Shown here piece by piece: positions 3,373-50,736 of a DNA stretch of 64,000 nucleotides. Each line of letters starts with the position of its first letter. The stretch's first letter is position 1. The position numbers were made by a program, and so were the translations under genes. The notes under the pieces are model-generated. The model was not told where the DNA came from, ran no database searches, and worked only from the letters and a program-made list of their open reading frames with translations. Source of the DNA: an uncultured Candidatus Saccharibacteria bacterium (lineage in GTDB: Bacteria; Patescibacteriota; Dojkabacteria; GCA-002793355); assembly GCA_964525295.1 (NCBI GenBank), contig CAZGEO010000001.1, positions 572,314-636,313 on the forward strand, given 5' to 3'.

Positions 3373-3401
3373 CTGCAAAGAACTGGAATTCTTGGTATAA
3401 T
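3373..3401 (+). promoter_or_regulatory. uvrB promoter (extended -10 TGGTATAAT) with GAAC-N4-ATTC dyad in the spacer (possible Cheo-like SOS box)
   Basis: TGGTATAAT at 3393-3401; GAACTGGAATTC at 3380-3391 resembles GAAC-N4-GTTC with one mismatch. Confidence 0.3.
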
Positions 3402-3406
3402 CGAAG

Positions 3407-5464
3407 ATGCGTTTTCAACTATCTTCCCAGTACAAACCAATGGGCGATCAGCCCCAAGCTATCGATAAATTGGTATCAGGTATACAGAATGGTCATAAAG
3501 ATCAAGTTCTGTTAGGGGTTACCGGTAGTGGAAAAACGTTTACGGTTGCGAATGTTATTGAAAGAATCCAAAAGCCGACGTTGATTATTTCACACAACAA
3601 AACACTTGCTGCCCAACTGTATCAGGAATTCAAAGAATTTTTTCCGAAAAACGCGGTGCAATATTTCGTTAGTTACTACGATTATTATCAGCCTGAAGCG
3701 TATATTCCACAGCGAGATCTATATATCGAAAAAGATGCCGATATTAACGAAGAAATTGATAAACTCCGTTTAGCGACTTCAACTGCACTTATGACACGTA
3801 AAGATGTTATCGTAATTGCGTCAGTATCAGCGATTTACAACATCGGTTCACCACAAACTTATAAAAATGCGATGGTTTTGGTCGAAAAAGGCAAAGGTGA
3901 AGGCATGCAGAAGTTACAGGTGGGACTGCTTGGTCTTTATTATGAAAGAAACGAAATTGATTTCAAGCGTGGTACTTTCAGAGTTCGTGGGAATGCTATA
4001 GATATTCATGTTTCTTATGCCGATCTAGGCGTTCGAGTCATATTTAATGGTGATATTGTCGCTAGCATGGAACTTTTCAATCCGGTGGATGGATCACCAA
4101 TTACCGATTACGATTATTACATTGACATACTTGTTGAGACCGAAGGTCAGACAATTGAAAAGGTCGTTCTTTACCCATCTAAGCATTATGTTATGGATCC
4201 GGCAGCTCAAGATGAAGCCGTTAAAAGAATTGAAGAAGATACGGTAAAGCGAGTTAAAGAGCTCGAAGCGCAAGGTAAAATGATTGAAGCACATAGATTA
4301 ACGCAGAAAGTTAAATACGACATGGAAATGATCCGAGAGATCGGTTACTGTAAAGGAATCGAAAACTACTCGTATTACTTTGACGGTCGTAAACTTGGCG
4401 AGCCACCTTATTCTTTAATGGATTACTTTCCAAAAGATGATTATTTGCTTATTATCGATGAATCACACATTACGATTCCGCAAGTGCGCGGAATGTTTAA
4501 CGGAGATCAAGCCCGAAAAGAAACATTAGTTGAGTATGGTTTCAGACTGCCAACGGCAAAAGAGAATAGACCTCTCCGATTCTCTGAGTTTGAAGAGAGA
4601 ATGGGAAACACTTTGTATCTTTCGGCAACTCCAGAAGAATATGAACTTAAAAAGGCAGGTAAAGAGAATATTGCAGAGCAATTGATTAGGCCAACTGGTT
4701 TGGTTGATCCAATCGTTGAAGTTCGACCAGTTGAAAATCAGATTCAAGATCTCGTTGGCGAAATTAAGAAAACAGTTGAAAAAGGAGAACGCGTGTTAGT
4801 TACCACCTTAACAAAGCGAATGGCCGAAGATTTGTCGCAGTATTTGAAAGATGGTGGCGTGCGAGTTACATACCTACACTCGGATATCGATACGATGGAT
4901 AGAACCGATATTTTGGCCGATTTGCGCGCTGGGAATTATGACGTTTTAGTTGGTATTAATCTGCTTCGTGAAGGGCTCGATTTGCCAGAAGTGTCGTTAG
5001 TTGCGATTCTTGATGCAGATAAAGAAGGATTTCTTCGCTCGCGAACTAGTTTAATTCAAACAATGGGTCGTGCTGCTCGTCATGTAAATGGTCATGTGAT
5101 TTTGTATGCAGACAAAAAAACTCACAGCATGCAAGAAGCCTTGTTCGAGGTAGAGCGCCGTCGAAAAATTCAGTTGGAATATAACGAAGCTCATGGAATT
5201 ACCCCGGCTTCTATTCAAAAGGCAATTCGACAGCGAATTTTGCCAAAGCAAGTCGAAGATACTGATGAAGCCCGTGAGAAGAGAATTCATACAGTATTGG
5301 GTAAAGACGTTGAAATCATGATCGCCTCGTACAGAACTATGCCTAGAAAAGAGCAAAAAGAGACTATCGATTGGCTCAATAAAGAGATGAAAAAAGAAGC
5401 GTTAGCGCTCAACTTTGAGAAAGCAATAGAATTGAGAGAGTTGATAAAGACGCTGAAGGAATAG
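3407..5464 (+). CDS. uvrB: Excinuclease ABC subunit B
   Basis: GVTGSGKT Walker A, YYDYYQPEAY beta-hairpin region, helicase motifs, C-terminal UVR domain (ALNFEKAIELRELI). Confidence 0.95.
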   Translation: MRFQLSSQYKPMGDQPQAIDKLVSGIQNGHKDQVLLGVTGSGKTFTVANVIERIQKPTLIISHNKTLAAQLYQEFKEFFPKNAVQYFVSYYDYYQPEAYIPQRDLYIEKDADINEEIDKLRLATSTALMTRKDVIVIASVSAIYNIGSPQTYKNAMVLVEKGKGEGMQKLQVGLLGLYYERNEIDFKRGTFRVRGNAIDIHVSYADLGVRVIFNGDIVASMELFNPVDGSPITDYDYYIDILVETEGQTIEKVVLYPSKHYVMDPAAQDEAVKRIEEDTVKRVKELEAQGKMIEAHRLTQKVKYDMEMIREIGYCKGIENYSYYFDGRKLGEPPYSLMDYFPKDDYLLIIDESHITIPQVRGMFNGDQARKETLVEYGFRLPTAKENRPLRFSEFEERMGNTLYLSATPEEYELKKAGKENIAEQLIRPTGLVDPIVEVRPVENQIQDLVGEIKKTVEKGERVLVTTLTKRMAEDLSQYLKDGGVRVTYLHSDIDTMDRTDILADLRAGNYDVLVGINLLREGLDLPEVSLVAILDADKEGFLRSRTSLIQTMGRAARHVNGHVILYADKKTHSMQEALFEVERRRKIQLEYNEAHGITPASIQKAIRQRILPKQVEDTDEAREKRIHTVLGKDVEIMIASYRTMPRKEQKETIDWLNKEMKKEALALNFEKAIELRELIKTLKE

Positions 5465-12221: not shown

Positions 12222-12266
12222 TCCTATTGCTAGAAAATTTAGCGTAGAAATGGTAGAATACACGTT

Positions 12267-15257
12267 ATGGAAAAGCTCACAATTCGCGGTGCTCGCGAGA
12301 ACAATCTCCAAAATATCGATCTTGATTTACCAAAGAACAAGCTAATTGTTTTTACAGGGCTATCGGGGTCTGGAAAGAGTTCTCTTGCAATGGATACGAT
12401 CTATGCAGAAGGTCAACGCAAATATGTCGAGAGTTTGTCTGCGTATGCACGCCAGTTCTTAGGTGAATTACGTAAACCAGATGTCGATAAAATCGAAGGT
12501 TTGTCACCATCAATAGCTATTGATCAAAAGACCGTTTCGCATAATCCTCGTTCAACCGTTGGAACAATTACAGAGATTTATGACTATTTACGCTTGTTGT
12601 ATGCTCGCGTCGGAATCGCACATTGTCCGCAATGTGGGGCGGTATTAACGTCTCAGACAATTGACCAAGTTGTTGAAGGTTTGTTGAACAAAATTAAAAA
12701 AGCGTACGAAAATGATGACGTTGTACAGAAATTCTCCTTCAGATTTATGGTCGCTGCTGTGCCAATTTCAGGGAGAAAAGGTGAATATGAACAGGTGTTT
12801 TTGAACTTGAGAAAGCAAGGCTGGAACGTTGTTCGTGTTGATGGCGAATATATTGACCTGAAATTAATGCTTCCCCAGCTAGATAAGTATAAACAGCACG
12901 ATATTGAGGTGATAGTCGACACTTTGTCGGTTTCTCGTACCATTTTCGAATCAGATGAAGCGGTAAAAGAGATACGATCACGAATCTTTCAGTCAATTGA
13001 AGCAGCACTCAAAATACAGCCAACTTTCGTAAGAATTCTTGAAATTCGCGATCCTCACCTTGGAATACCTGCAAAGGCTGACGCAATCCTTTCACACGAT
13101 TACAGCGTTTCGAAGAGTTGTAAACAATGTGGCATTTCTGTTCCTGATTTTGAGCCACGAGACTTTTCCTTTAACTCACCACACGGGGCATGCCCTGAAT
13201 GTGATGGGTTAGGGGTGATTAAGCAAATAAGTACCGAAGGAATTGTCGATGGAAAACGATCGGTTTTAGCCGGTGGAATCATTCCTTATGCGAAGATGTT
13301 AGAACGTGATACGTATTTTCGTAGGCTTTTAGAAATTGTTTGTGATGAACATACGATTTCATTGCATACTCCCGTGAGTATGTTGACCGAAGGCAAATTA
13401 AATGTTCTTTTGTACGGTACCGGTGAGCAAAAATATAAAGTAACCTACTTTTCGAGCCAAGATGGTTCGGAACGTTCTCTGCATGCGAAATTCGAAGGTA
13501 TTATTCCAAACCTTGAGCGACGCTACAAAGAAACAAATTCTGACTTTATTCGCACCGAAATTGAAAAATTTATGTCAACAGTAACCTGTCCGACGTGTAA
13601 AGGTACTCGATTGAAAGATATTACATTGGCAGTTACCATCAAAGACTACAACATTGCGCAACTGTGTGACTTGACCATCAATGATTTTGCTACTGTTATG
13701 ACTGACTTACCGAAAACGCTTGATAATAAGTCTCTTGCGATAGCGCAGCCGGTCGTAAAGGAAATTCTTTTGAGATCGCAATTCCTATTAGATGTTGGGC
13801 TTGAATATTTAACGGTAAGCCGTACAGCAACAACTCTCTCGGGTGGTGAAGCTCAGCGTATTCGTTTGGCAAGCCAAATTGGTACTGGTTTATCTGGGGT
13901 CATTTACGTATTAGATGAACCATCAATTGGGTTACATGCGCGAGATCAACATCGTTTGATAGCGACATTAAAGCATCTTCGAGATTTAGGAAATACGGTC
14001 ATCGTTGTCGAACATGATCGAGATACTATGTTGAATGCGGATCTTATCGTAGATTTTGGTCCAGGTGCGGGAAGTAATGGAGGAAAAATTATTGCTATGG
14101 GAACTCCTGCGCAATTAATGAAAGCGGAAGATTCAGTAACAGGTCCATACCTTGCAGGAAAGAAGACCATTGCGAAAGAAGTGCAGAAAATTATTACAGC
14201 ACAAGAAAAGAAAAGCTCAAGAATTACCGTACAGCGTGATGCTGCATATGGAAAACGTCCAGATAGATATATTGAATTATCTGGTGCTAAAACTCATAAT
14301 CTAAAAGATGTTACCGTTAAATTCCCTCTCGGAAAATTCGTCTGTGTCACGGGAGTCTCGGGTTCAGGGAAAAGTTCATTGGTTGTTGAAACGTTATTGC
14401 CCGCATTGAAACGTAATTTAGGGCTTCGAACAGATAGTCCTGATACTGTTTTTAAGAATCTGTATATCTCAGATGTTGTCGATAAAGTGCTATATATTGA
14501 TCAGTCTCCAATCGGTCGTACTCCACGTAGCAATGCTGCAACCTACACGAAGTTGTTTGATGATATTCGTGAACTTTTTGCTCAAACAAAAGACTCAAAA
14601 GTTCGCGGTTATACAGCTAGTCGCTTTAGCTTTAACCTGAAGGGTGGTCGCTGTGAAGCGTGTAAAGGAGAAGGAAAAATTCGTATCGAAATGCAGTTTA
14701 TGCCTGATGTTTATATTGACTGTGATGTTTGCCACGGAAAACGATACGTATCCGAAGTGCTTGAAGTGAATTATAAAGGTAAGAATATCGCTGAAGTTCT
14801 TGAAATGTCTATCGATGAAGCGCAAGCTTTCTTTTCAGAACTTTCAGTTTTACGCGAAAAATTAGAAATGTTGCAACAAGTTGGGCTTGGTTATCTGAAG
14901 TTAGGTGAACCAGCACCGATGCTTTCTGGCGGAGAAGCTCAGCGTATTAAATTATCTTCTGAATTAGGAAGACGAGCAACAGGTAAAACAGTGTATATTC
15001 TAGATGAACCTACAACTGGCTTGCACTTTGCAGATATTGAAAAGCTTGTTGCAGTTTTGAAAACTCTTGTAAAAAACGGTAGTAGTGTATTCGTGATTGA
15101 GCATAATATCGATTTTATTGCTGAAGCTGATTACCTTATCGACATGGGGCCTGAAGGTGGTAGCGGTGGTGGTGAAGTTGTCGGGTTAGGGAGTGTTGGT
15201 GATATTCGTCGCAATGAACGAAGCTGGACGGGGAGAATGTTGAAAGAACTTGTTTAG
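12267..15257 (+). CDS. uvrA: Excinuclease ABC subunit A
   Basis: Two ABC ATPase modules (GLSGSGKSSL, GVSGSGKSSL), zinc-finger CxxC pairs, LSGGEAQR signatures, 996 aa. Confidence 0.95.
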   Translation: MEKLTIRGARENNLQNIDLDLPKNKLIVFTGLSGSGKSSLAMDTIYAEGQRKYVESLSAYARQFLGELRKPDVDKIEGLSPSIAIDQKTVSHNPRSTVGTITEIYDYLRLLYARVGIAHCPQCGAVLTSQTIDQVVEGLLNKIKKAYENDDVVQKFSFRFMVAAVPISGRKGEYEQVFLNLRKQGWNVVRVDGEYIDLKLMLPQLDKYKQHDIEVIVDTLSVSRTIFESDEAVKEIRSRIFQSIEAALKIQPTFVRILEIRDPHLGIPAKADAILSHDYSVSKSCKQCGISVPDFEPRDFSFNSPHGACPECDGLGVIKQISTEGIVDGKRSVLAGGIIPYAKMLERDTYFRRLLEIVCDEHTISLHTPVSMLTEGKLNVLLYGTGEQKYKVTYFSSQDGSERSLHAKFEGIIPNLERRYKETNSDFIRTEIEKFMSTVTCPTCKGTRLKDITLAVTIKDYNIAQLCDLTINDFATVMTDLPKTLDNKSLAIAQPVVKEILLRSQFLLDVGLEYLTVSRTATTLSGGEAQRIRLASQIGTGLSGVIYVLDEPSIGLHARDQHRLIATLKHLRDLGNTVIVVEHDRDTMLNADLIVDFGPGAGSNGGKIIAMGTPAQLMKAEDSVTGPYLAGKKTIAKEVQKIITAQEKKSSRITVQRDAAYGKRPDRYIELSGAKTHNLKDVTVKFPLGKFVCVTGVSGSGKSSLVVETLLPALKRNLGLRTDSPDTVFKNLYISDVVDKVLYIDQSPIGRTPRSNAATYTKLFDDIRELFAQTKDSKVRGYTASRFSFNLKGGRCEACKGEGKIRIEMQFMPDVYIDCDVCHGKRYVSEVLEVNYKGKNIAEVLEMSIDEAQAFFSELSVLREKLEMLQQVGLGYLKLGEPAPMLSGGEAQRIKLSSELGRRATGKTVYILDEPTTGLHFADIEKLVAVLKTLVKNGSSVFVIEHNIDFIAEADYLIDMGPEGGSGGGEVVGLGSVGDIRRNERSWTGRMLKELV

Positions 15258-26147: not shown

Positions 26148-26569
26148 GGGGGTGACCGGCTTAGACGGTTGTTCATTGAAAGAAGTAGCCAAGCGGGCTG
26201 ATATCCCGTAAATCTATCAAAGCACCATAAAGTGCCAAGTCAAACCTTTCTGAGAAAGTCGCAGCTTTTTTGAACTCAGCAGTTAAGGCTTTTGCCTCAG
26301 TTGTTGCAGCTCCAAAGCTTGCAGTCTCACTCGTCTCTTAATGACGTAACTGGTTTCTCCTCCTTTGCATAACAAGCGGGAAACCAGGAGTAATAAGGTT
26401 TATGCCGACACGCTATCAAGCTCCGCTGGGGTAGAGTGTTGTACATGTGCGGGCGAGTATTCCTTTTTTGCTCGATTTTCAGGGGATACTTAGTACTCAA
26501 CTCGAGCTGTCTTGGGAGAGACTTCTTTTTAAGAAGAGCTGCACAGGGGTTCGATTCCCCTCACCTCCA
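26148..26569 (+). ncRNA. ssrA: tmRNA (transfer-messenger RNA)
   Basis: 5' GGGGGUGA pairs with 3' UCACCUCC to give a 7-bp acceptor stem with a G3:U wobble (tRNA-Ala identity), followed by a discriminator A. T-arm AGGGGUUCGAUUCCCCU. 5' GGCUUAGACGG resembles the GGAUUCGACGG box. Internal frame ...AAAGUC GCA GCU... is followed by UAAUGA stops and a CUGGUUUC/GAAACCAG helix. Confidence 0.65.
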
Positions 26570-27325
26570 TTTTTTCAACACTCTCGTTCGCTACAAAAAA
26601 GAAACCAGTTCTTTTTTGTTACGCTCACGATCCGTGTAGAAGAAAATGGAGCGAACGGGAGGGGTGAAAAATAGGAAAATGTTGGGGAAGCGAAACGCAA
26701 GCGAGAATGTACTGACGTACATTCGAACGAAGCGGGGGTCGAGGAGCGGAAAATTTTCTAGCGAAGCGACGGAAATGACCGCGAGGTGACCGATTCCCCT
26801 GACTTTTGAAAACGCTTCGAAAGAGTTTTTTATGACGTCGGCGACCATTACCCATTCGGGCAAAAAGAGGCTTTTCAAAACGATAATGTTCGATGCTATC
26901 GCCTGAAAGTATAACCTTATCGTTTACTGTGAATGGTAAAGAATCTTCTTGTGTTGCACTACTATCAAGCGAAGTAGTGCAGTCAGAAGCGCGAGCGCGT
27001 AGGGGCTCGCGCTCTTCTTCCTGCAAGCCATGAGAAACAATCGACTGTCTCTTTCCTTTTATTCTTGAGGAATTTGAGTCACTCGAAATTTTGCCCATAA
27101 GTAGTGTGCCTACACGAGTAGATCCAATGGATCATTTCTAATGTAGGGTGCCTAACCTTGAAGGCGGCTACTTACGGTCTGACAGTTCTTTTGAACAGCG
27201 TGATCTTTTTGTTAACTTGTTTTCTCTGGCATCATCACTCCTACCAGCAGAAGGCGCATTCGGCCTTGGGCCTTTATATATTACCCTGTTAAATTGTAAG
27301 CGATAAAATAATTTAGAATAGAGTA

Positions 27326-28399
27326 CTACACCCCAGTCATAACCTTGAATTTATAACGTGGTCTTAGCGGAGTAATGAAACTCCATTGAACGTGGTCTTC
27401 TTTTGCCAATCTTCCTGCAACTATTGAATGTGCTATTTGAATTTTATTCGCGAATTCTTTGATCGAAGCCAATGAGAAGATTCCTGATTGAATAAACTGT
27501 TCGTACATATCAGAGGGTATTAGTGTGTTTTTCGCAAATTCGTTGGCTTCTAATTCATGGGTTTGAGTATCATCCTGACTGATTTCATCAATAAAGTTTT
27601 TATTTTTGTCATGAATTATCAAGTGGCCCAACTCGTGAAAGAGTGTGAACCAGAATATATCTTCAGTGCAGTTACGCAATGATAAAATAATTACTGGTGT
27701 CTCATTTTGTATCCAAATCAATGCACCGTTAACAGGGGATCTCGGAATATTCGGCAACCCAATTAAAACTACACCCGCCTTTTTTAGAATTTCTTTTACT
27801 TGTTTATAGACTACTGTGATAGGCTGCTGTGATAGTTTTTTTATCTCATCGAGAGAGCGAGTTAACAAGGTTTTGTTGTATCTGTATTCTGGTAATGATT
27901 TGAGTGCAGCAATTTCTCCCTGTCTTAACCAAGCTTGCGTTTCAGGGATTGAAGCCTTAAGTTTATCTGCAATTCTGAATTCGATTGCTACATCCCTATC
28001 TATTACTGTTTTAAGTGAATTAACTGCGAAGAAATTCAGTAGGTTCCTAACTTTGGTTACTTGATTAATAGTTTTCTCTACCCAACCAAAGTTTGCCATA
28101 TCTTTATAAAAGGAAAAATGAGGAAGATATTTCTTTTCATCTAAAACATGGTTAAGGTCTTCTTCAATAGCAAGCGCGTGCTGATAATTGCTCTCAAGAT
28201 TAATCCAAAAGTCGGATGAGATTTCGAATATTCTAGATAGACGTATTGCAGTCTCGGGAGTAATAGATGCTTTCTCATTAATAATCATGTTCAGTTGCTT
28301 TCTGCTCAGACCAATACGTGCAGCGAGTTCAACCTGTGATAATCCATAAGCTATCATCGTTTCTTCAAGGATTGTCCCTGGATGTGTGATGTTGTTCAT
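27326..28399 (-). CDS. HigA-type HTH antitoxin fused to ImmA/IrrE (COG2856, DUF955) Zn-metallopeptidase domain
   Basis: N-terminal HPGTILEE...GLSQVELAARIGLSRKQLNMIINEKASITPETAIRLSRIFEISSDFWINLESNY matches the HigA/VapI HTH. C-terminal HEXXH (FHELGHLIIHD) in a DUF955 context. Confidence 0.7.
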   Translation of the reverse strand: MNNITHPGTILEETMIAYGLSQVELAARIGLSRKQLNMIINEKASITPETAIRLSRIFEISSDFWINLESNYQHALAIEEDLNHVLDEKKYLPHFSFYKDMANFGWVEKTINQVTKVRNLLNFFAVNSLKTVIDRDVAIEFRIADKLKASIPETQAWLRQGEIAALKSLPEYRYNKTLLTRSLDEIKKLSQQPITVVYKQVKEILKKAGVVLIGLPNIPRSPVNGALIWIQNETPVIILSLRNCTEDIFWFTLFHELGHLIIHDKNKNFIDEISQDDTQTHELEANEFAKNTLIPSDMYEQFIQSGIFSLASIKEFANKIQIAHSIVAGRLAKEDHVQWSFITPLRPRYKFKVMTGV

Positions 28400-36627: not shown

Positions 36628-37338
36628 CTAGTACTCCAGTTTCTCTTCATCAGGCTCAGTAATGTATGGCGTAAAAGCTGTAGGATTCGCAAGAAATTCT
36701 TTGATATGTGGCAAGCCTGTTTCAAATCCTTTTCTAAAAATTTTATCGAGTTCAAAGATTTTGTCGATATCGTGCCAAAAGTATTCACCTTCAATATTTT
36801 GTGAATTTGGCGAACCTTCCCATTTTGTTACAAATATGACAAAAAATACTCCATCACCGACTATTTCGCCGGTTTCATTTCTGATGATCTCACGATGAAT
36901 TCCTGCTACTTTGAATTCTGTTGGCACAATAGCTAGTTCTTCTTGTAATTCTCTTCGCATGTTATGTTCTAGTGATTCGCCCCATTTAAGCTTGCCAGTA
37001 ACGGCGCCAATGTAATCATAATGTGGATGCTTTTTTCTTCTGAACAGTAACATTTGCCAATTGCCCTCGTGATATCGCAATAAATCGATAAACATGCTGA
37101 CTTTGAACTGTTTTTGATACTGTCCATCTTCTTCCATCAGCGACACTTGTTGCCTACCTTCTGAAGAAAGTGAGTAGGAGCTGCCATTTTTTAAGATGAG
37201 CCCTTTCGCCACTAATTCTCTTAAATGATAATTGAATAAATCATGATTTCCGCTAGCTTTGTGTAATTCGCCATAGGTTAAACTCGGTGAAAACATAAGT
37301 TTGTTGAGTATTATTTTCCTTGTTTCTGCTTCTGTCAT
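36628..37338 (-). CDS. Winged-HTH / NUDIX hydrolase fusion protein (paralog of 8369..9085)
   Basis: LFNYHLRELVAKGLILK wHTH and Nudix box GKLKWGESLEHNMRRELQEELAI. Same architecture and length as the other copy, though the sequence has diverged. Confidence 0.7.
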   Translation of the reverse strand: MTEAETRKIILNKLMFSPSLTYGELHKASGNHDLFNYHLRELVAKGLILKNGSSYSLSSEGRQQVSLMEEDGQYQKQFKVSMFIDLLRYHEGNWQMLLFRRKKHPHYDYIGAVTGKLKWGESLEHNMRRELQEELAIVPTEFKVAGIHREIIRNETGEIVGDGVFFVIFVTKWEGSPNSQNIEGEYFWHDIDKIFELDKIFRKGFETGLPHIKEFLANPTAFTPYITEPDEEKLEY

Positions 37339-38264: not shown

Positions 38265-38301
38265 CTGTACTATTGACAGTAGTACGCGTGTCGTGTACTA
38301 T
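38265..38301 (+). promoter_or_regulatory. lexA promoter (TTGACA-N17-TACTAT) with candidate LexA operator dyad GTACTA-N7-TAGTAC overlapping -35
   Basis: Direct reading: TTGACA at 38273-38278, TACTAT at 38296-38301; inverted repeat arms at 38267-38272 and 38280-38285 (also parsable as CTGT-N7-ACAG). Confidence 0.45.
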
Positions 38302-38329: not shown

Positions 38330-38935
38330 ATGGAACCACTACACAAGGCGCAGCAGCTACTTTTAGAATTACTTGCAAAAAATGCTCAAGACCCGTTGAC
38401 AATTCGTGAATTGCAAAACAGAATAGGTGCTTCATCACCAAGTGTTGTTACTCACCATTTAAAGCAATTGCAGAAAAAAGGGTATTTAACTAGAGATCCG
38501 CACGATCCTCGCACGTATATTGTGCATGAAAAAACTGAATTACTTGGTGATATTGTCAGTTTGCCACTTTATGGTATGGCTCAATGTGGTCCTAACGGTA
38601 GTTTGCTTGATGGTGCACCAGTTGAATATGTACCAATTTCTAGGCAATTGTTAGGAACGTATTACGATAATTCATTTATGGTTAAAGCACGTGGTGATTC
38701 AATGGAACCACAAATTAAAGAAGGCGATCTTGTTATTGCAGTCAAGCGAAATCTGGCTCAATCGGGAGACATTGTTGTATGTGTTAATCATGAAAAAGTA
38801 CTTATTAAAAAATATGTCGAAAGTGAGAATATGGTACTGCTTCTTTCACTTAATCAGAATTATGATCCAATAATTCCTGCTGAAGACTTTCGCATCGAAG
38901 GGGTAGTGAAATCGGTATATTCGTATCAGCGTTAG
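38330..38935 (+). CDS. lexA: LexA repressor (S24 peptidase family)
   Basis: N-terminal wHTH (LTIRELQNRIGASSPSVVTHHLKQLQKKGYL). C-terminal S24 catalytic motifs GDSMEP and the Lys region (VLIKKYV). Confidence 0.85.
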   Translation: MEPLHKAQQLLLELLAKNAQDPLTIRELQNRIGASSPSVVTHHLKQLQKKGYLTRDPHDPRTYIVHEKTELLGDIVSLPLYGMAQCGPNGSLLDGAPVEYVPISRQLLGTYYDNSFMVKARGDSMEPQIKEGDLVIAVKRNLAQSGDIVVCVNHEKVLIKKYVESENMVLLLSLNQNYDPIIPAEDFRIEGVVKSVYSYQR

Positions 38936-38978: not shown

Positions 38979-40157
38979 ATGAAACTATTCTTTTCAATAA
39001 TTCGCTGGTTAATTGCAATTTTTGCCTCGATTGTGTGGTATGCAATCGTTGTTACGATAATACCAATACAATTGTTTCTTGGTAATTTTGCAACTCGAGA
39101 AGGAGCAACGCAGTTTGTTACCGCATTGACTGTTTCAGAAGAAACAACGGTGGCTCTTCGAGAAGGCATAATTTCTGGTTTGGCAAATAGTCAGGTGACT
39201 GACCCAAGTTTAGCGCAGCTATTTGCTGATGTAGCACAGCCGACCTCGGTGCTTGGCGATACTGTTAGGAAGGTCTTTACGGCGTCGATGTTACGAAATA
39301 ATCTACGTAATAACGTCACGATCTTTTACGATTGGTTAGAAGGAAAGAATGCAAACTTAGTATTGAATGTAAAACTGGAAGGAACAAAAGCGCAGCATGA
39401 GGCGATTCTGAATGCTGTTATCAAATCGGAATATGATGCATTACCAGAATGTACCGAAGCTGAATTGCGACAAATAATGGCCTCTCCATCGGGTAGTGAA
39501 ACTCCAACATGTCGCTTTGTTCCTTATGAACAGCTTGATAATTCTTTAACGACTGAAGGCTTTTTTTCTGCTCCTGAATACACGCAAGCAACGACAACAG
39601 GGCTTCCTTTTGATACTAAGGCAACGGCAAGTGATAGAGAAGCAATTAAAGCATTTTTTGGATTAGCTCAGGTAGGTCGTCAGATATTCTGGGTATTGTT
39701 GGCAATTGTAGCAGTCATAATCTGGTTACTCTTTACCCCACGCGCAATTAGCTCGATAATGACGGGAATCTTGCTGGTGTTTACTGCTTTAACGCTTTAT
39801 TCAGAGGCAGCAATTATTGCGGGAATCGCAGGTGTAAGTACGTTGTCAGTTTATGTTGGAAAATTACAACAAACCGCAAATATTCTTCTTGCGATAGGCG
39901 TACTACTCGCAGTATTCGGTGTATATCTGCTAGCTCGTAAAAAGAAAAAATCACCTGCAGAAAATGTAGTTGACAGACGAGTAGAGGAAGAGCCGGTAGT
40001 TTCAGAGATATCAGGAGTTGCAAAGAAAAATTCAGTTGAATCAGAAGAGCGGAAAGGGGTTGCAAAAAACGAAGCGACTGAAAAAGAAGACATTAACACA
40101 CCTGAAGTTGCAGAATCTAGTGAAGTGAGTGGCGATTCAAGCTCGGATGATTCGTAA
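38979..40157 (+). CDS. Hypothetical membrane protein with acidic/Ser-rich C-terminal tail
   Basis: Several TM segments at both ends of a central soluble region; C-terminal EEPVVSEISGV...SSDDS tail. Confidence 0.4.
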   Translation: MKLFFSIIRWLIAIFASIVWYAIVVTIIPIQLFLGNFATREGATQFVTALTVSEETTVALREGIISGLANSQVTDPSLAQLFADVAQPTSVLGDTVRKVFTASMLRNNLRNNVTIFYDWLEGKNANLVLNVKLEGTKAQHEAILNAVIKSEYDALPECTEAELRQIMASPSGSETPTCRFVPYEQLDNSLTTEGFFSAPEYTQATTTGLPFDTKATASDREAIKAFFGLAQVGRQIFWVLLAIVAVIIWLLFTPRAISSIMTGILLVFTALTLYSEAAIIAGIAGVSTLSVYVGKLQQTANILLAIGVLLAVFGVYLLARKKKKSPAENVVDRRVEEEPVVSEISGVAKKNSVESEERKGVAKNEATEKEDINTPEVAESSEVSGDSSSDDS

Positions 40158-47636: not shown

Positions 47637-47903
47637 ATGAAAAAGAAAACTGCCACAAAAAGCTCAAACGCAACATACGAAGAATCATTCAGCGGTAAAG
47701 CCTCTGAATTGATTGAACGATTGAAAGAAATTATTGCCGAAGGGAATGCCCGACAAATTGTAGTTGAAGATAAGTCAGGTAAGGTACTTTTTACCATTCC
47801 TGTAACTTTTGGTATCTTTGGCGCACTAATTGCTCCTGGGCTTGCAGCCTTAGGTGCAGTCGCAGCAGTAGTTGCGGAATGCACTATTAGAGTAGAAAAA
47901 TAA
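47637..47903 (+). CDS. DUF4342 domain protein
   Basis: EESFSGKASELIERLKEIIAEGNARQIVVEDKSGKVLFTIPVTFGIFGALIAPGLAALGAVAAVVAECTIRVEK matches the DUF4342 pattern. Confidence 0.55.
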   Translation: MKKKTATKSSNATYEESFSGKASELIERLKEIIAEGNARQIVVEDKSGKVLFTIPVTFGIFGALIAPGLAALGAVAAVVAECTIRVEK

Positions 47904-48733
47904 TGATTCTTTCAGACAATAAAGAAGCTCAGAGGAAATCATCGACAGCCAATATCACTGATTCTTTACCATACGCTGAGCGTCAGGGAGTTTTGTTTGC
48001 ACTGTCGCCAATTTCTCGAGAAATTCCACATTTTGAGCTAGATTTCACAAAATTAGAAACTAGTGTTCGTAGTGCCTTTAATTCAGCTATTCCCGAAACT
48101 TTAAAGAGAACTAAAGAATTCGCTGGTCAAGGAGGCGTGAATTCCTTGATGAAAACGATACTTTTGTTCGAATCGGAGAATGTTCTTGGAAGTCAGTTAA
48201 TTCATGAAGATGTAATAAAAGCGAAACTCTCAAGCCTAATAGCTGGCAAAAAGAATTGTCGAGGCGAATTTTTAATACAAGAGTCATCAAATGAGAGTTT
48301 GACTCGAGTCGTTAATTATTTAACGAATATATATCTTCAAATACATCCAATTTCTGCAGAAAATCTGAAAATTTTACCTCTTTCAGAAAGTAGAGACAGT
48401 TCTCAAAGAATTATCGAACATAGAAAAAATATCGAATCAGTGATTATTTTGTACTTACGCACAAAGTCAAACGAATTTAAAGTCATGAAAAATACGGGTT
48501 TGCCTTATACTGTAGGTGAAATAGAACAAATGCTCGAAGAAATTAAAGAAAATGATCCAATCGAATTGCTGAATCCACCACAAGATTTCTCACTTGCCGA
48601 ATATTTACAGAAACAATATCAGAACAAAATTGAAAATTTCTACACAATGCGTAACCGTGCAACTCGCAGAGTTCGGCAGATGCTTCAAAAAGCACCAGAT
48701 GACGAAGATTTATTGCACGATGATCTGTATTGA
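47903..48733 (+). CDS. Hypothetical protein, translationally coupled (TAATG) to the DUF4342 gene
   Basis: 276-aa ORF; no motif recognised. Confidence 0.4.
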   Translation: MILSDNKEAQRKSSTANITDSLPYAERQGVLFALSPISREIPHFELDFTKLETSVRSAFNSAIPETLKRTKEFAGQGGVNSLMKTILLFESENVLGSQLIHEDVIKAKLSSLIAGKKNCRGEFLIQESSNESLTRVVNYLTNIYLQIHPISAENLKILPLSESRDSSQRIIEHRKNIESVIILYLRTKSNEFKVMKNTGLPYTVGEIEQMLEEIKENDPIELLNPPQDFSLAEYLQKQYQNKIENFYTMRNRATRRVRQMLQKAPDDEDLLHDDLY

Positions 48734-48740
48734 TTTTACA

Positions 48741-49074
48741 GCGCTGAATCTGAGCATCTGAAAGAGGTTGCCGTTGTCTCATGAGTAGGGCTAAAACGTT
48801 GCAGATTCAAGAGAAACAGAGGGCCTTATGAGCTAAATCAATACGCGGGAAATTCTAGGCAAAGGTGAATCTCGCAACGAGTTGTACGACTATATTGCGA
48901 GTGCGGAACACAACCACTAACGCTGAATCTGAAAGTTTTTGCCGTTATTTCGTGAGTAGGGTTAAAACGCGGCGGATTCAAAGAGTCAGCGAGTATCGGA
49001 ATGAGTTGTACATCTGTACTACGAATGAGTAACACAGCTGACGACGAAGAATCCACCCGTTATAGCCCACGAAC

Positions 49075-49075
<1 letters not shown>
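48741..49075. repeat. Two imperfect tandem copies of an about 180-bp unit between convergent genes (downstream of groEL)
   Basis: CGCTGAATCTGA...GCCGTTGTCTCATGAGTAGGGCTAAAACGTTGCAGATTCAAGAG (48742..) vs CGCTGAATCTGA...GCCGTTATTTCGTGAGTAGGGTTAAAACGCGGCGGATTCAAAGAG (48921..); downstream GAGTTGTAC shared. Confidence 0.5.

Positions 49076-50736
<1,661 letters not shown>

What the first reader, a model, noticed from the sequence alone, without database searches (positions are those of the whole stretch)
38265..38301. Candidate LexA operator overlapping the -35 box of the lexA promoter
Directly upstream of lexA is a near-consensus sigma-70 promoter, TTGACA-N17-TACTAT. It is embedded in a dyad GTACTA-TTGACAG-TAGTAC, which can also be read as CTGT-N7-ACAG. 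An autoregulated SOS promoter is expected here. The uvrB promoter has a different GAAC-N4-ATTC dyad (3380-3391), and uvrA has no obvious match. That leaves the operator consensus of this lineage open.
Basis: seen in the sequence. Interest (0 to 1): 0.5.

Follow-up and report, generated by a model that had tools for sequence, protein, structure and literature searches.

The report
LexA operator in the lexA promoter
The palindrome upstream of lexA in this small Patescibacteria (CPR) genome is very probably the site where LexA represses its own gene: an expected feature, but with a lineage-specific spelling (three TAGTAC half-sites) and layout.

Summary
TTGACA (38273-38278)-N17-TACTAT (38296-38301) lies 28 bp upstream of a genuine lexA (38330-38935). 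It is embedded in GTACTA-N7-TAGTAC (38267-38285).

Comparison with about 85 orthologous lexA promoters shows that this LexA family uses TAGWAC half-sites:
- 66 of 80 promoters carry a strict half-site pair, against 3 in about 260 kb of flanking DNA.
- The exact geometry GTWCTA-N7-TAGWAC occurs in 21 of 81 lineages.
- The full three-site layout occurs in the window, L001, L002, L052, L082 and L083.
- There is a graded GAAC to GTAC series across these loci.
- In the closest relative (LexA 83% identical) all three half-sites are intact, while the spacer (3/9) and flanks (8/40, 5/25) have diverged.

The alternative CTGT-N7-ACAG reading is not conserved.

No second operator exists in the 64 kb window; uvrA, uvrB and uvrC have none. 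The regulon beyond lexA therefore remains unknown.

Verdict: a real autoregulatory LexA operator, a GTAC-flavoured, inverted-geometry variant of the Patescibacteria LexA box. LexA binding itself is inferred, not shown. Interest is modest.

The parts
38267..38300 (.). Complete candidate LexA operator: three TAGTAC-type half-sites, H1(-) N7 H2(+) N9 H3(-), spanning the core promoter
   Evidence: Sequence. It is the only 0-mismatch match to both pair geometries in the window. The same three-site layout is found upstream of lexA in L001, L002, L052, L082 and L083.
38267..38272 (.). Half-site H1, GTACTA (reverse complement of TAGTAC), immediately upstream of the -35
   Evidence: 6/6 conserved in L001. 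It is GTACTA in all six type-C promoters. No promoter hexamer explains its conservation.
38273..38278 (+). -35 hexamer TTGACA, lying in the H1-H2 spacer
   Evidence: Promoter scan. Conserved in L001. Promoter use itself is inferred; there are no transcript data.
38280..38285 (.). Half-site H2, TAGTAC, inside the -35/-10 spacer
   Evidence: 6/6 conserved in L001 while the following 9 nt are 3/9 conserved. It corresponds to TAGAAC or TAGTAC at the same position in L002, L052, L082 and L083.
38286..38294 (.). Non-conserved 9-nt spacer between H2 and H3
   Evidence: 3/9 identical in L001. The only promoter substitution in the 97.2%-identical strain L086 (C to T at 38287) falls here.
38295..38300 (.). 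Half-site H3, GTACTA, overlapping the -10
   Evidence: Conserved in L001. It corresponds to GTTCT(T) at N9-N12 from H2 in 36 of 81 relatives. Five of its six bases are also -10 bases, so its role as a LexA half-site is less certain than that of H1 and H2.
38296..38301 (+). -10 hexamer TACTAT
   Evidence: Promoter scan. Conserved in L001.
38330..38935 (+). lexA: the repressor that is inferred to bind the operator
   Evidence: PF01726 (4e-13) and PF00717 (9e-21). The identical protein P0001 lies on a 659 kb contig. Alignment A1 has invariant C86, S124 and K160 and nearly invariant G87. I read these as the cleavage site and the Ser/Lys catalytic dyad, by analogy with E. coli LexA and UmuD.
38979..40157 (+). 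Membrane-protein gene 43 bp downstream of lexA; a possible co-transcribed partner (inferred only)
   Evidence: Same strand, and no terminator-like site between the two genes. No Pfam family. Present in strain L086 but absent from the L001 locus, so it is not a conserved partner.

Best explanation
The 34-bp block 38267-38300 is the autoregulatory operator of lexA. It consists of three half-sites of the TAGWAC type, all spelled TAGTAC here. They are arranged as GTACTA-N7-TAGTAC-N9-GTACTA. The first two bracket the -35 hexamer and the third overlaps the -10.

Inferred mechanism: LexA dimers occupy the H1/H2 dyad. A second dimer, or the same dimer in an alternative register, uses H2/H3 or H3. Occupancy blocks RNA polymerase from the TTGACA-N17-TACTAT promoter. 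After DNA damage, RecA-stimulated self-cleavage of LexA would release the promoter.

Shown here: the sequence anatomy, its statistical rarity, the identity of the downstream gene, and the conservation of the half-sites and their geometry across lexA promoters. Inferred: that LexA is the binding protein, the stoichiometry, promoter use, and RecA dependence.
For: 1. The downstream gene is a canonical LexA. Conserved residues are consistent with an intact self-cleavage site and catalytic dyad.
2. In 66 of 80 orthologous lexA upstream regions there is at least one strict TAGWAC half-site pair. The same patterns occur only 3 times in the roughly 260 kb of those loci outside the upstream regions.
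3. The window's exact geometry GTWCTA-N7-TAGWAC occurs in 21 of 81 upstream regions. The full three-site layout occurs in six loci.
4. There is a graded series. L002, L052 and L082 have GTACTA-N7-TAGAAC-N10-GTTCTT. L083 has GTACTA-N7-TAGTAC-N10-GTTCTT. The window and L001 have GTACTA-N7-TAGTAC-N9-GTACTA. L019 uses TAGTAC twice in the direct-repeat layout. GTAC and GAAC/GTTC cores are therefore interchangeable within single promoters.
5. Footprint against L001 (LexA 83% identical): H1 6/6, H2 6/6, H3+T 7/7, against spacer 3/9 and flanks 8/40 and 5/25. L001 has a different, divergently oriented upstream neighbour, so the block travels with lexA.
6. The strain variant L086 has its only promoter substitution in the spacer.
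7. The recognition helix SSPSVVxHH is the same across all operator types.
8. GTAC-cored LexA boxes, with GTAC and GTTC mixed in one site, are documented in cyanobacteria (PMC3091678). A full LexA site plus one extra half-site, bound cooperatively, is documented for Verrucomicrobia lexA promoters (PMC4951493).
9. Chance is excluded.
Against: There is no direct binding or expression evidence.

No second operator was found in the 64 kb window, even though uvrA, uvrB, uvrC, a RecD2-like helicase and an HhH-GPD glycosylase are present. A regulon-level confirmation is therefore missing.

A weight matrix built only from relatives' GTTCTA-N7-TAGAAC sites does not rank the window's site highly, probably because its T/A core positions and its spacer differ from that training set.

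H3 shares five of its six bases with the -10, so its conservation could be due to promoter function alone.

Only one moderately diverged relative (L001) shares the all-GTAC spelling.

The Patescibacteria LexA paper (PMID 28618189) could not be read. I therefore cannot say how far this layout departs from the published motif.
Confidence: 0.85

Rival explanations
1. Only the H1/H2 dyad (38267-38285) is the LexA site and it binds one dimer. The third GTACTA is conserved simply because it is the -10 (TACTAT).
For: Five of the six H3 bases are -10 bases. The type-B lineages manage with GTTCTA-N7-TAGAAC alone.
Against: A third half-site at N9-N12 from H2 (GTTCT) is present in 36 of 81 relatives. There it abuts the -35 rather than the -10, so it is a family feature independent of the -10. 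The G at 38295, which lies outside the -10, is conserved in L001.
Confidence: 0.2
2. The conserved GTACTA elements are bound by a regulator other than LexA, or are lineage-specific promoter elements.
For: No binding data exist. The window encodes other HTH proteins: wHTH-NUDIX at 36628-37338 and HTH-IrrE/M78 at 27326-28399.
Against: The only gene constantly associated with the motif across about 66 diverse lineages is lexA. Neighbouring genes differ. The half-site resembles known LexA half-sites, GAAC/GTTC and GTAC.
Confidence: 0.06
3. The operator is an E. coli-type SOS box read as CTGT-N7-ACAG (38265-38279).
For: The tetranucleotides are present.
Against: They are not conserved in L001, which has ATGT...ACAA. 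The spacing is N7, not N8. No relative shows CTGT...ACAG.
Confidence: 0.02
4. It is a chance palindrome, or an RNA hairpin/terminator of the upstream UbiA gene.
For: The region can form hairpins with a minimum free energy of -13.3 kcal/mol.
Against: The fold is not exceptional: z = -1.1, and 27 of 200 shuffles fold as well. There is no T-run and no terminator call. In L001 the upstream gene is different and divergent, yet the block is conserved. Simulations exclude chance.
Confidence: 0.02

Closest known systems
Patescibacteria LexA-binding motif (Sanchez-Osuna, Barbe and Erill, Environ Microbiol 2017, PMID 28618189). The paper is not held. A later paper from the same group cites it among direct-repeat LexA motifs (PMC7739468).
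   Same: Same phylum-level group and the same LexA family. The half-site I recover from relatives is TAGAAC, most often as TAGAAC-N6-TAGAAC followed by GTTCT (35 of 81 promoters). The window's half-site differs from it at one core position.
   Different: The window has no direct repeat. Its first half-site is inverted (GTACTA-N7-TAGTAC), all three cores are GTAC, and the promoter hexamers sit inside the operator rather than after it. I could not read the paper, so I do not know whether this layout is already described there.
Cyanobacterial LexA box, RGTACNNNDGTWCB / AGTACWNWTGTACT (PMC3091678)
   Same: GTAC core, with tolerance of GTAC or GTTC at the same position within one site.
   Different: In cyanobacteria the cores are 4 nt apart (GTAC-N4-GTAC). 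Here they are 11 and 9 nt apart.
Firmicutes/Actinobacteria LexA (Cheo) box, GAAC-N4-GTTC
   Same: Related GAAC/GTTC half-site. H2/H3 have the same head-to-head orientation.
   Different: The N4 spacing is absent from all 81 lexA promoters of this family. Here the H2-H3 gap is N9, and N9-N12 in relatives.
Verrucomicrobia LexA box, TGTTC-N4-GAACA, with tandem arrangement in lexA promoters (PMC4951493)
   Same: GTTC...GAAC orientation like H1/H2. lexA promoters carry a full site plus one extra conserved half-site and are bound cooperatively. This is the best precedent for three half-sites.
   Different: The cores are 4 nt apart there and 11 nt apart here (6-mer half-sites separated by N7). The phylum is also different.
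E. coli SOS box, CTGT-N8-ACAG
   Same: Same function: an autoregulatory operator overlapping the lexA promoter.
   Different: The half-site sequence and spacing are unrelated. The CTGT/ACAG seen here is fortuitous.

Membership tests
Autoregulatory LexA operator (SOS box at the lexA promoter) | Located within or overlapping the core promoter of a gene encoding a canonical LexA | tested here: met
   The operator at 38267-38300 covers the predicted -35 and -10, 29 bp upstream of lexA.
Autoregulatory LexA operator (SOS box at the lexA promoter) | Matches the motif conserved upstream of orthologous lexA genes of the same LexA family | tested here: met
   TAGWAC half-site pairs occur in 66 of 80 orthologous promoters. 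The identical geometry occurs in 21 of 81 and the triple layout in 6. The background is 3 pairs in about 260 kb.
Autoregulatory LexA operator (SOS box at the lexA promoter) | Half-sites conserved while spacers and flanks diverge (phylogenetic footprint) | tested here: met
   Window against L001: half-sites 19/19 (6/6 H1, 6/6 H2, 7/7 H3+T), spacer 3/9, flanks 8/40 and 5/25.
Autoregulatory LexA operator (SOS box at the lexA promoter) | Repressor capable of RecA-stimulated self-cleavage (cleavage site plus Ser/Lys dyad) | tested here: inconclusive
   Alignment A1 has invariant C86, S124 and K160 and nearly invariant G87. I assign these as a Cys-Gly cleavage site like that of UmuD and as the Ser/Lys dyad, by analogy only. 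recA is not in the window and cleavage was not tested.
Autoregulatory LexA operator (SOS box at the lexA promoter) | Specific binding of LexA to the site | not testable with these tools
   This needs EMSA or footprinting.
SOS regulon motif (same box upstream of other damage-inducible genes) | Recurrence upstream of recA, error-prone polymerases or NER genes in the same genome | tested here: not met
   In the 64 kb window no other site has 1 mismatch or fewer in intergenic DNA. uvrB, uvrA and uvrC lack it. The remaining roughly 595 kb of the genome could not be fetched.
Patescibacteria direct-repeat LexA box | Tandem direct repeat of the half-site (here TAGAAC-N6-TAGAAC) | tested here: not met
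   The best direct-repeat match at the lexA promoter has 1-2 mismatches and is an artefact of the palindromic GTAC. The window instead uses the inverted N7 arrangement.
E. coli-type SOS box | CTGT-N8-ACAG, conserved | tested here: not met
   The spacing is N7. The tetranucleotides are not conserved in L001.
Cheo box / cyanobacterial LexA box | GAAC or GTAC cores separated by 4 nt | tested here: not met
   The core gaps are 11 and 9 nt. There are 0 N4 sites in 81 lexA promoters.

The most novel reading that the evidence does not exclude
In this CPR lineage (the window plus L001) LexA has drifted to an all-GTAC, three-half-site operator fused with the promoter hexamers. It may control little or nothing beyond itself, perhaps also the downstream membrane protein. 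That would make it a minimal, self-contained SOS loop in a 0.66 Mb genome whose NER genes are constitutive. The lineage-specific wing sequence (LTRDPxDPRxYIVHE against the family's LRRNPxNPxDYQIL) could be the protein-side correlate of the altered spelling and spacing.
Probability: 0.2. Interest if true: 0.45.

Novelty: new variant of a known kind. Interest (0 to 1): 0.3.

Why it matters
LexA is unusual among transcription factors in how often its binding motif has changed during evolution. Candidate-phyla bacteria cannot be cultured, so their regulation is known only from sequence.

This promoter, together with its relatives, shows one LexA family using the same half-site in at least three geometries: direct repeat, inverted N7, and inverted N9-N12. 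GAAC and GTAC cores are mixed within these sites. The relatives also include apparent intermediates between the family consensus and the window's all-GTAC operator.

The practical value is modest. It gives a defined operator model (TAGWAC; H(-)N7H(+)N9-10H(-)) for scanning CPR genomes. It also shows that NER genes in this genome are probably not SOS-controlled. It does not change the textbook picture of lexA autoregulation.

Tried and rejected
1. Scanning the window with the literal dyad at 3 mismatches or fewer gave 14 hits against 16.6 expected, so there is no recurrence.

2. Weight matrices built from relatives' sites (inverted-repeat 19-mer, direct-repeat 18-mer, half-site 7-mer) found no operator-grade hit anywhere else. 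All top hits lie inside ORFs and score below the shuffle maxima. These matrices also under-score the window's own site.

3. IUPAC pair scans at 2 mismatches or fewer for all geometries gave counts at or below the null.

4. The uvrB GAAC-N4-ATTC (3380-3391) was rejected as a LexA site. The N4 geometry never occurs in this family's lexA promoters. It sits just upstream of an extended -10, TGGTATAAT, at 3393-3401.

5. The uvrA upstream TAGAAA/TAGAAT repeats (12231-12259) were rejected. They lack the C that is kept in every half-site of the relatives' strict pairs, their spacing is wrong, and TGGTAGAAT looks like an extended -10.

6. GTACATCTGTACTA at 49008-49021 has cyanobacterial-type N4 spacing, but it belongs to a tandemly duplicated non-coding unit and is not upstream of any gene.

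They were dominated by low-complexity GTA/CTA repeats, and none had a LexA homologue, so the scan was uninformative.

8. Four attempts to extend beyond the window through edge proteins failed because the proteins are not on record. The rest of the 659 kb genome, including recA and any translesion polymerases, could not be examined.

9. The 2017 Patescibacteria SOS paper is not held. Searches for text describing its motif found only citations.

10. The Bacteroidetes 'non-canonical LexA' paper concerns a different, CI-like repressor family and is not applicable.

11. The RNA hairpin or terminator idea was rejected.

Full report
**What is in the sequence.** The finding's coordinates are accurate.
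- The ORF 38330-38935 (+) is a canonical LexA. It has a LexA DNA-binding domain (PF01726, 4e-13) and a Peptidase_S24 domain (PF00717, 9e-21).
- Upstream lies the best sigma-70-like site of the region: TTGACA (38273-38278), a 17-nt spacer and TACTAT (38296-38301), matching 10 of 12 positions.
- The -35 sits in the 7-nt spacer of a perfect dyad, GTACTA (38267-38272) and TAGTAC (38280-38285).
- The overall layout is GTACTA-N7-TAGTAC-N9-GTACTA.
- The alternative reading CTGT (38265-38268)-N7-ACAG (38276-38279) is physically present.
- The uvrB-proximal GAAC-TGGA-ATTC is at 3380-3391.

**Is it more than chance?**
- The hexamer GTACTA is not enriched overall in the window (19 found, 15.1 expected).
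- Three distinct TA-flanked GTAC cores within 32 bp arose in only 1 of 1000 first-order Markov simulations of 64 kb.
- The exact dyad arose in 0 of 400 simulations.
- With the middle core base written as W, the lexA promoter holds the only 0-mismatch instance in the window of both GTWCTA-N7-TAGWAC and TAGWAC-N9-GTWCTW.

**Source organism.**
- The identical LexA (P0001) is on record on a 659,080-bp contig.
- The next relative is 83% identical. All others are 58% identical or less and come mostly from Patescibacteria/CPR bins: Gracilibacteria, Shapirobacteria, Saccharibacteria, Woesebacteria and Dojkabacteria.
- The window is AT-rich, 39% G+C.
- Its genes include uvrB, uvrA, uvrC, a RecD2-like helicase, an HhH-GPD glycosylase, mur genes, groEL, rpoD and a tmRNA.

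**Comparative evidence.** I collected about 85 lexA loci and read their upstream regions. They share one half-site, TAGAAC (TAGWAC), in three recurrent arrangements.

| Type | Arrangement | Where |
|---|---|---|
| A | TAGAAC-N6-TAGAAC, then about 10 nt, then GTTCT fused to a TTGAC -35 | 35 of 81 regions |
| B | GTTCTA-N7-TAGAAC alone, about 37 bp before the start codon | One coherent LexA clade, in bins labelled Rickettsiales or Alphaproteobacteria |
| C | Inverted first site, second site, third site | Six loci |

The type-C loci form a graded series:
- L002, L052 and L082: GTACTA-N7-TAGAAC-N10-GTTCTT
- L083: GTACTA-N7-TAGTAC-N10-GTTCTT
- The window and L001: GTACTA-N7-TAGTAC-N9-GTACTA

Further points from the comparison:
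- L019 uses TAGTAC twice in the type-A layout. GTAC and GAAC/GTTC cores are therefore interchangeable within single promoters.
- The LexA recognition helix (SSPSVVxHH) is the same in all types.
- In total, 66 of 80 upstream regions of at least 100 bp contain at least one strict half-site pair. The same patterns occur only three times in the rest of those loci, about 260 kb.
- After L001, three of the window's four closest LexAs (L083, L082, L002) are type C.

**Footprint in close relatives.**
- In L001 (LexA 83% identical) the upstream neighbour is a different, divergently oriented gene.
- The block is nevertheless kept: H1 6/6, -35 spacer 6/7, H2 6/6 and H3+T 7/7. The H2-H3 spacer is 3/9 identical and the flanks are 8/40 and 5/25.
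- H1 and H2 are not promoter hexamers, so promoter function cannot explain their conservation.
- CTGT and ACAG are not kept. L001 has ATGT and ACAA, which removes the E. coli-like reading.
- A strain 97.2% identical over 11.3 kb (L086) has a single substitution in the promoter, at 38287 in the spacer.

**Mechanism.**
- *Shown.* An operator-like, conserved array of half-sites typical of this LexA family covers the predicted -35 and -10 of lexA.
- *Inferred from established knowledge of LexA systems.* LexA dimers bind it and occlude RNA polymerase. RecA-stimulated self-cleavage relieves repression. The residues I take to be the Cys-Gly cleavage site and the Ser/Lys dyad are conserved in the family alignment: C86, S124 and K160 invariant, G87 nearly so.
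- *Three half-sites.* This is a family-wide feature. The best precedent is the Verrucomicrobia lexA promoter, where a full site plus one conserved extra half-site is bound cooperatively (PMC4951493).
- *Stoichiometry.* Which pair a dimer uses, H1/H2 or H2/H3, cannot be decided from sequence. Type B shows that the N7 dyad can stand alone.
- *H3.* It shares five bases with the -10, so its status as a LexA half-site is the least secure. I give a two-half-site model about 0.2.
- *What differs from relatives.* In most relatives the -35 follows the third half-site. In the window and L001 the promoter hexamers are interleaved with the half-sites.

**Regulon.**
- No other operator-grade site exists in the window.
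- uvrB, uvrA and uvrC are present and lack one.
- The GAAC-N4-ATTC at uvrB uses a spacing never seen in 81 lexA promoters of this family. I reject it as a LexA site.
- The TAGAAA/TAGAAT repeats before uvrA lack the conserved C and look like -10 elements.
- No recA or translesion polymerase gene is in the window, and I could not reach the rest of the genome.
- The single metagenome scan with the strict triple pattern returned only low-complexity repeats and unrelated loci.

**Comparison with known systems.**
- This is a lexA autoregulatory operator, a textbook arrangement.
- The half-site belongs to the GAAC/GTTC/GTAC group used by Firmicutes and Actinobacteria (GAAC-N4-GTTC), Verrucomicrobia (TGTTC-N4-GAACA), Alphaproteobacteria (GTTC-N7-GTTC) and cyanobacteria (AGTACWNWTGTACT, with GTAC and GTTC mixed).
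- A Patescibacteria LexA motif was published in 2017 (PMID 28618189). A later paper from the same group cites it among direct-repeat LexA motifs. That fits the type-A layout I recovered independently, but I could not read the paper.
- The window's operator fails the direct-repeat test, the Cheo/cyanobacterial N4 test and the E. coli CTGT-N8-ACAG test.
- I therefore file it as a new variant of a known kind: same protein family and same half-site family, but an inverted N7 plus N9 geometry with all-GTAC cores.

**Verdict.** The corrections are three half-sites rather than one dyad, and no CTGT/ACAG box. My confidence that this is the LexA operator is about 0.85. Interest is modest (0.3): it refines the picture of LexA motif plasticity in uncultured bacteria but is not surprising.

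Noticed in passing
window 48742-49040 (+), between ORF 47903-48733 and groEL 49075-50703(-): A tandem duplication of a non-coding unit of about 175 nt. Both copies start with CGCTGAATCTGA, and a 55-nt core is 82% identical (48756-48810 against 48927-48981). No Rfam family matches. It may be an undescribed structured RNA or a repeat element.
   Followed up: partly
Relatives' lexA promoters: L012, L013, L027, L030, L044, L060, L063, L072 (130 bp upstream of lexA): Exact DnaA-box 9-mers (TTATCCACA / TGTGGATAA) occur in 8 of 81 lexA upstream regions. The same loci hold only 2 in 248 kb elsewhere, about a 100-fold enrichment. Five of them lie between the LexA operator and the -10. This suggests DnaA co-regulation of lexA, or that lexA lies next to oriC in many CPR genomes. 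The window's own lexA promoter has none.
   Followed up: partly
window 3393-3407 and 12252-12267: uvrB and uvrA each have an extended -10 (TGGTATAAT at 3393-3401; TGGTAGAAT at 12251-12259) ending 5-7 nt before the ATG. Both mRNAs are therefore probably leaderless.
   Followed up: no
window 27326-28399 (-): A fusion of an XRE-type HTH (PF01381) with an IrrE/ImmA-like M78 metallopeptidase domain (PF06114). This is a second candidate stress- or damage-responsive regulator, which might control genes that LexA does not.
   Followed up: no
window 26148-26572 (+): A tmRNA gene (Rfam RF00023, 78 bits). ARAGORN did not call it, and it found no tRNA genes in the 64 kb window.
   Followed up: no
Loci L009-L081: Canonical LexAs 47-55% identical to this one, with the same TAGAAC operators, occur in bins labelled Rickettsiales, 'Rickettsia typhi', Bacteroidia, Planctomycetia, Gammaproteobacteria and even Methanosarcinales. 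One is in the cultured Chitinophagaceae strain Ilyomonas limi (L058). The cause is either widespread mis-binning or mislabelling of CPR contigs, or lateral spread of this lexA family.
   Followed up: no
LexA residues about 53-67 (window 38486-38530): The window and L001 share a distinct wing segment, LTRDPxDPRxYIVHE, against the family consensus LRRNPxNPxDYQIL. It coincides with the all-GTAC operator and the N9 spacing. A causal link is speculative.
   Followed up: no
L083 1185-2291: In this relative, lexA overlaps by 8 bp the start of a gene for an N6 DNA methyltransferase/Eco57I-type restriction-modification enzyme. They may form an operon, so the enzyme may be LexA-controlled.
   Followed up: no
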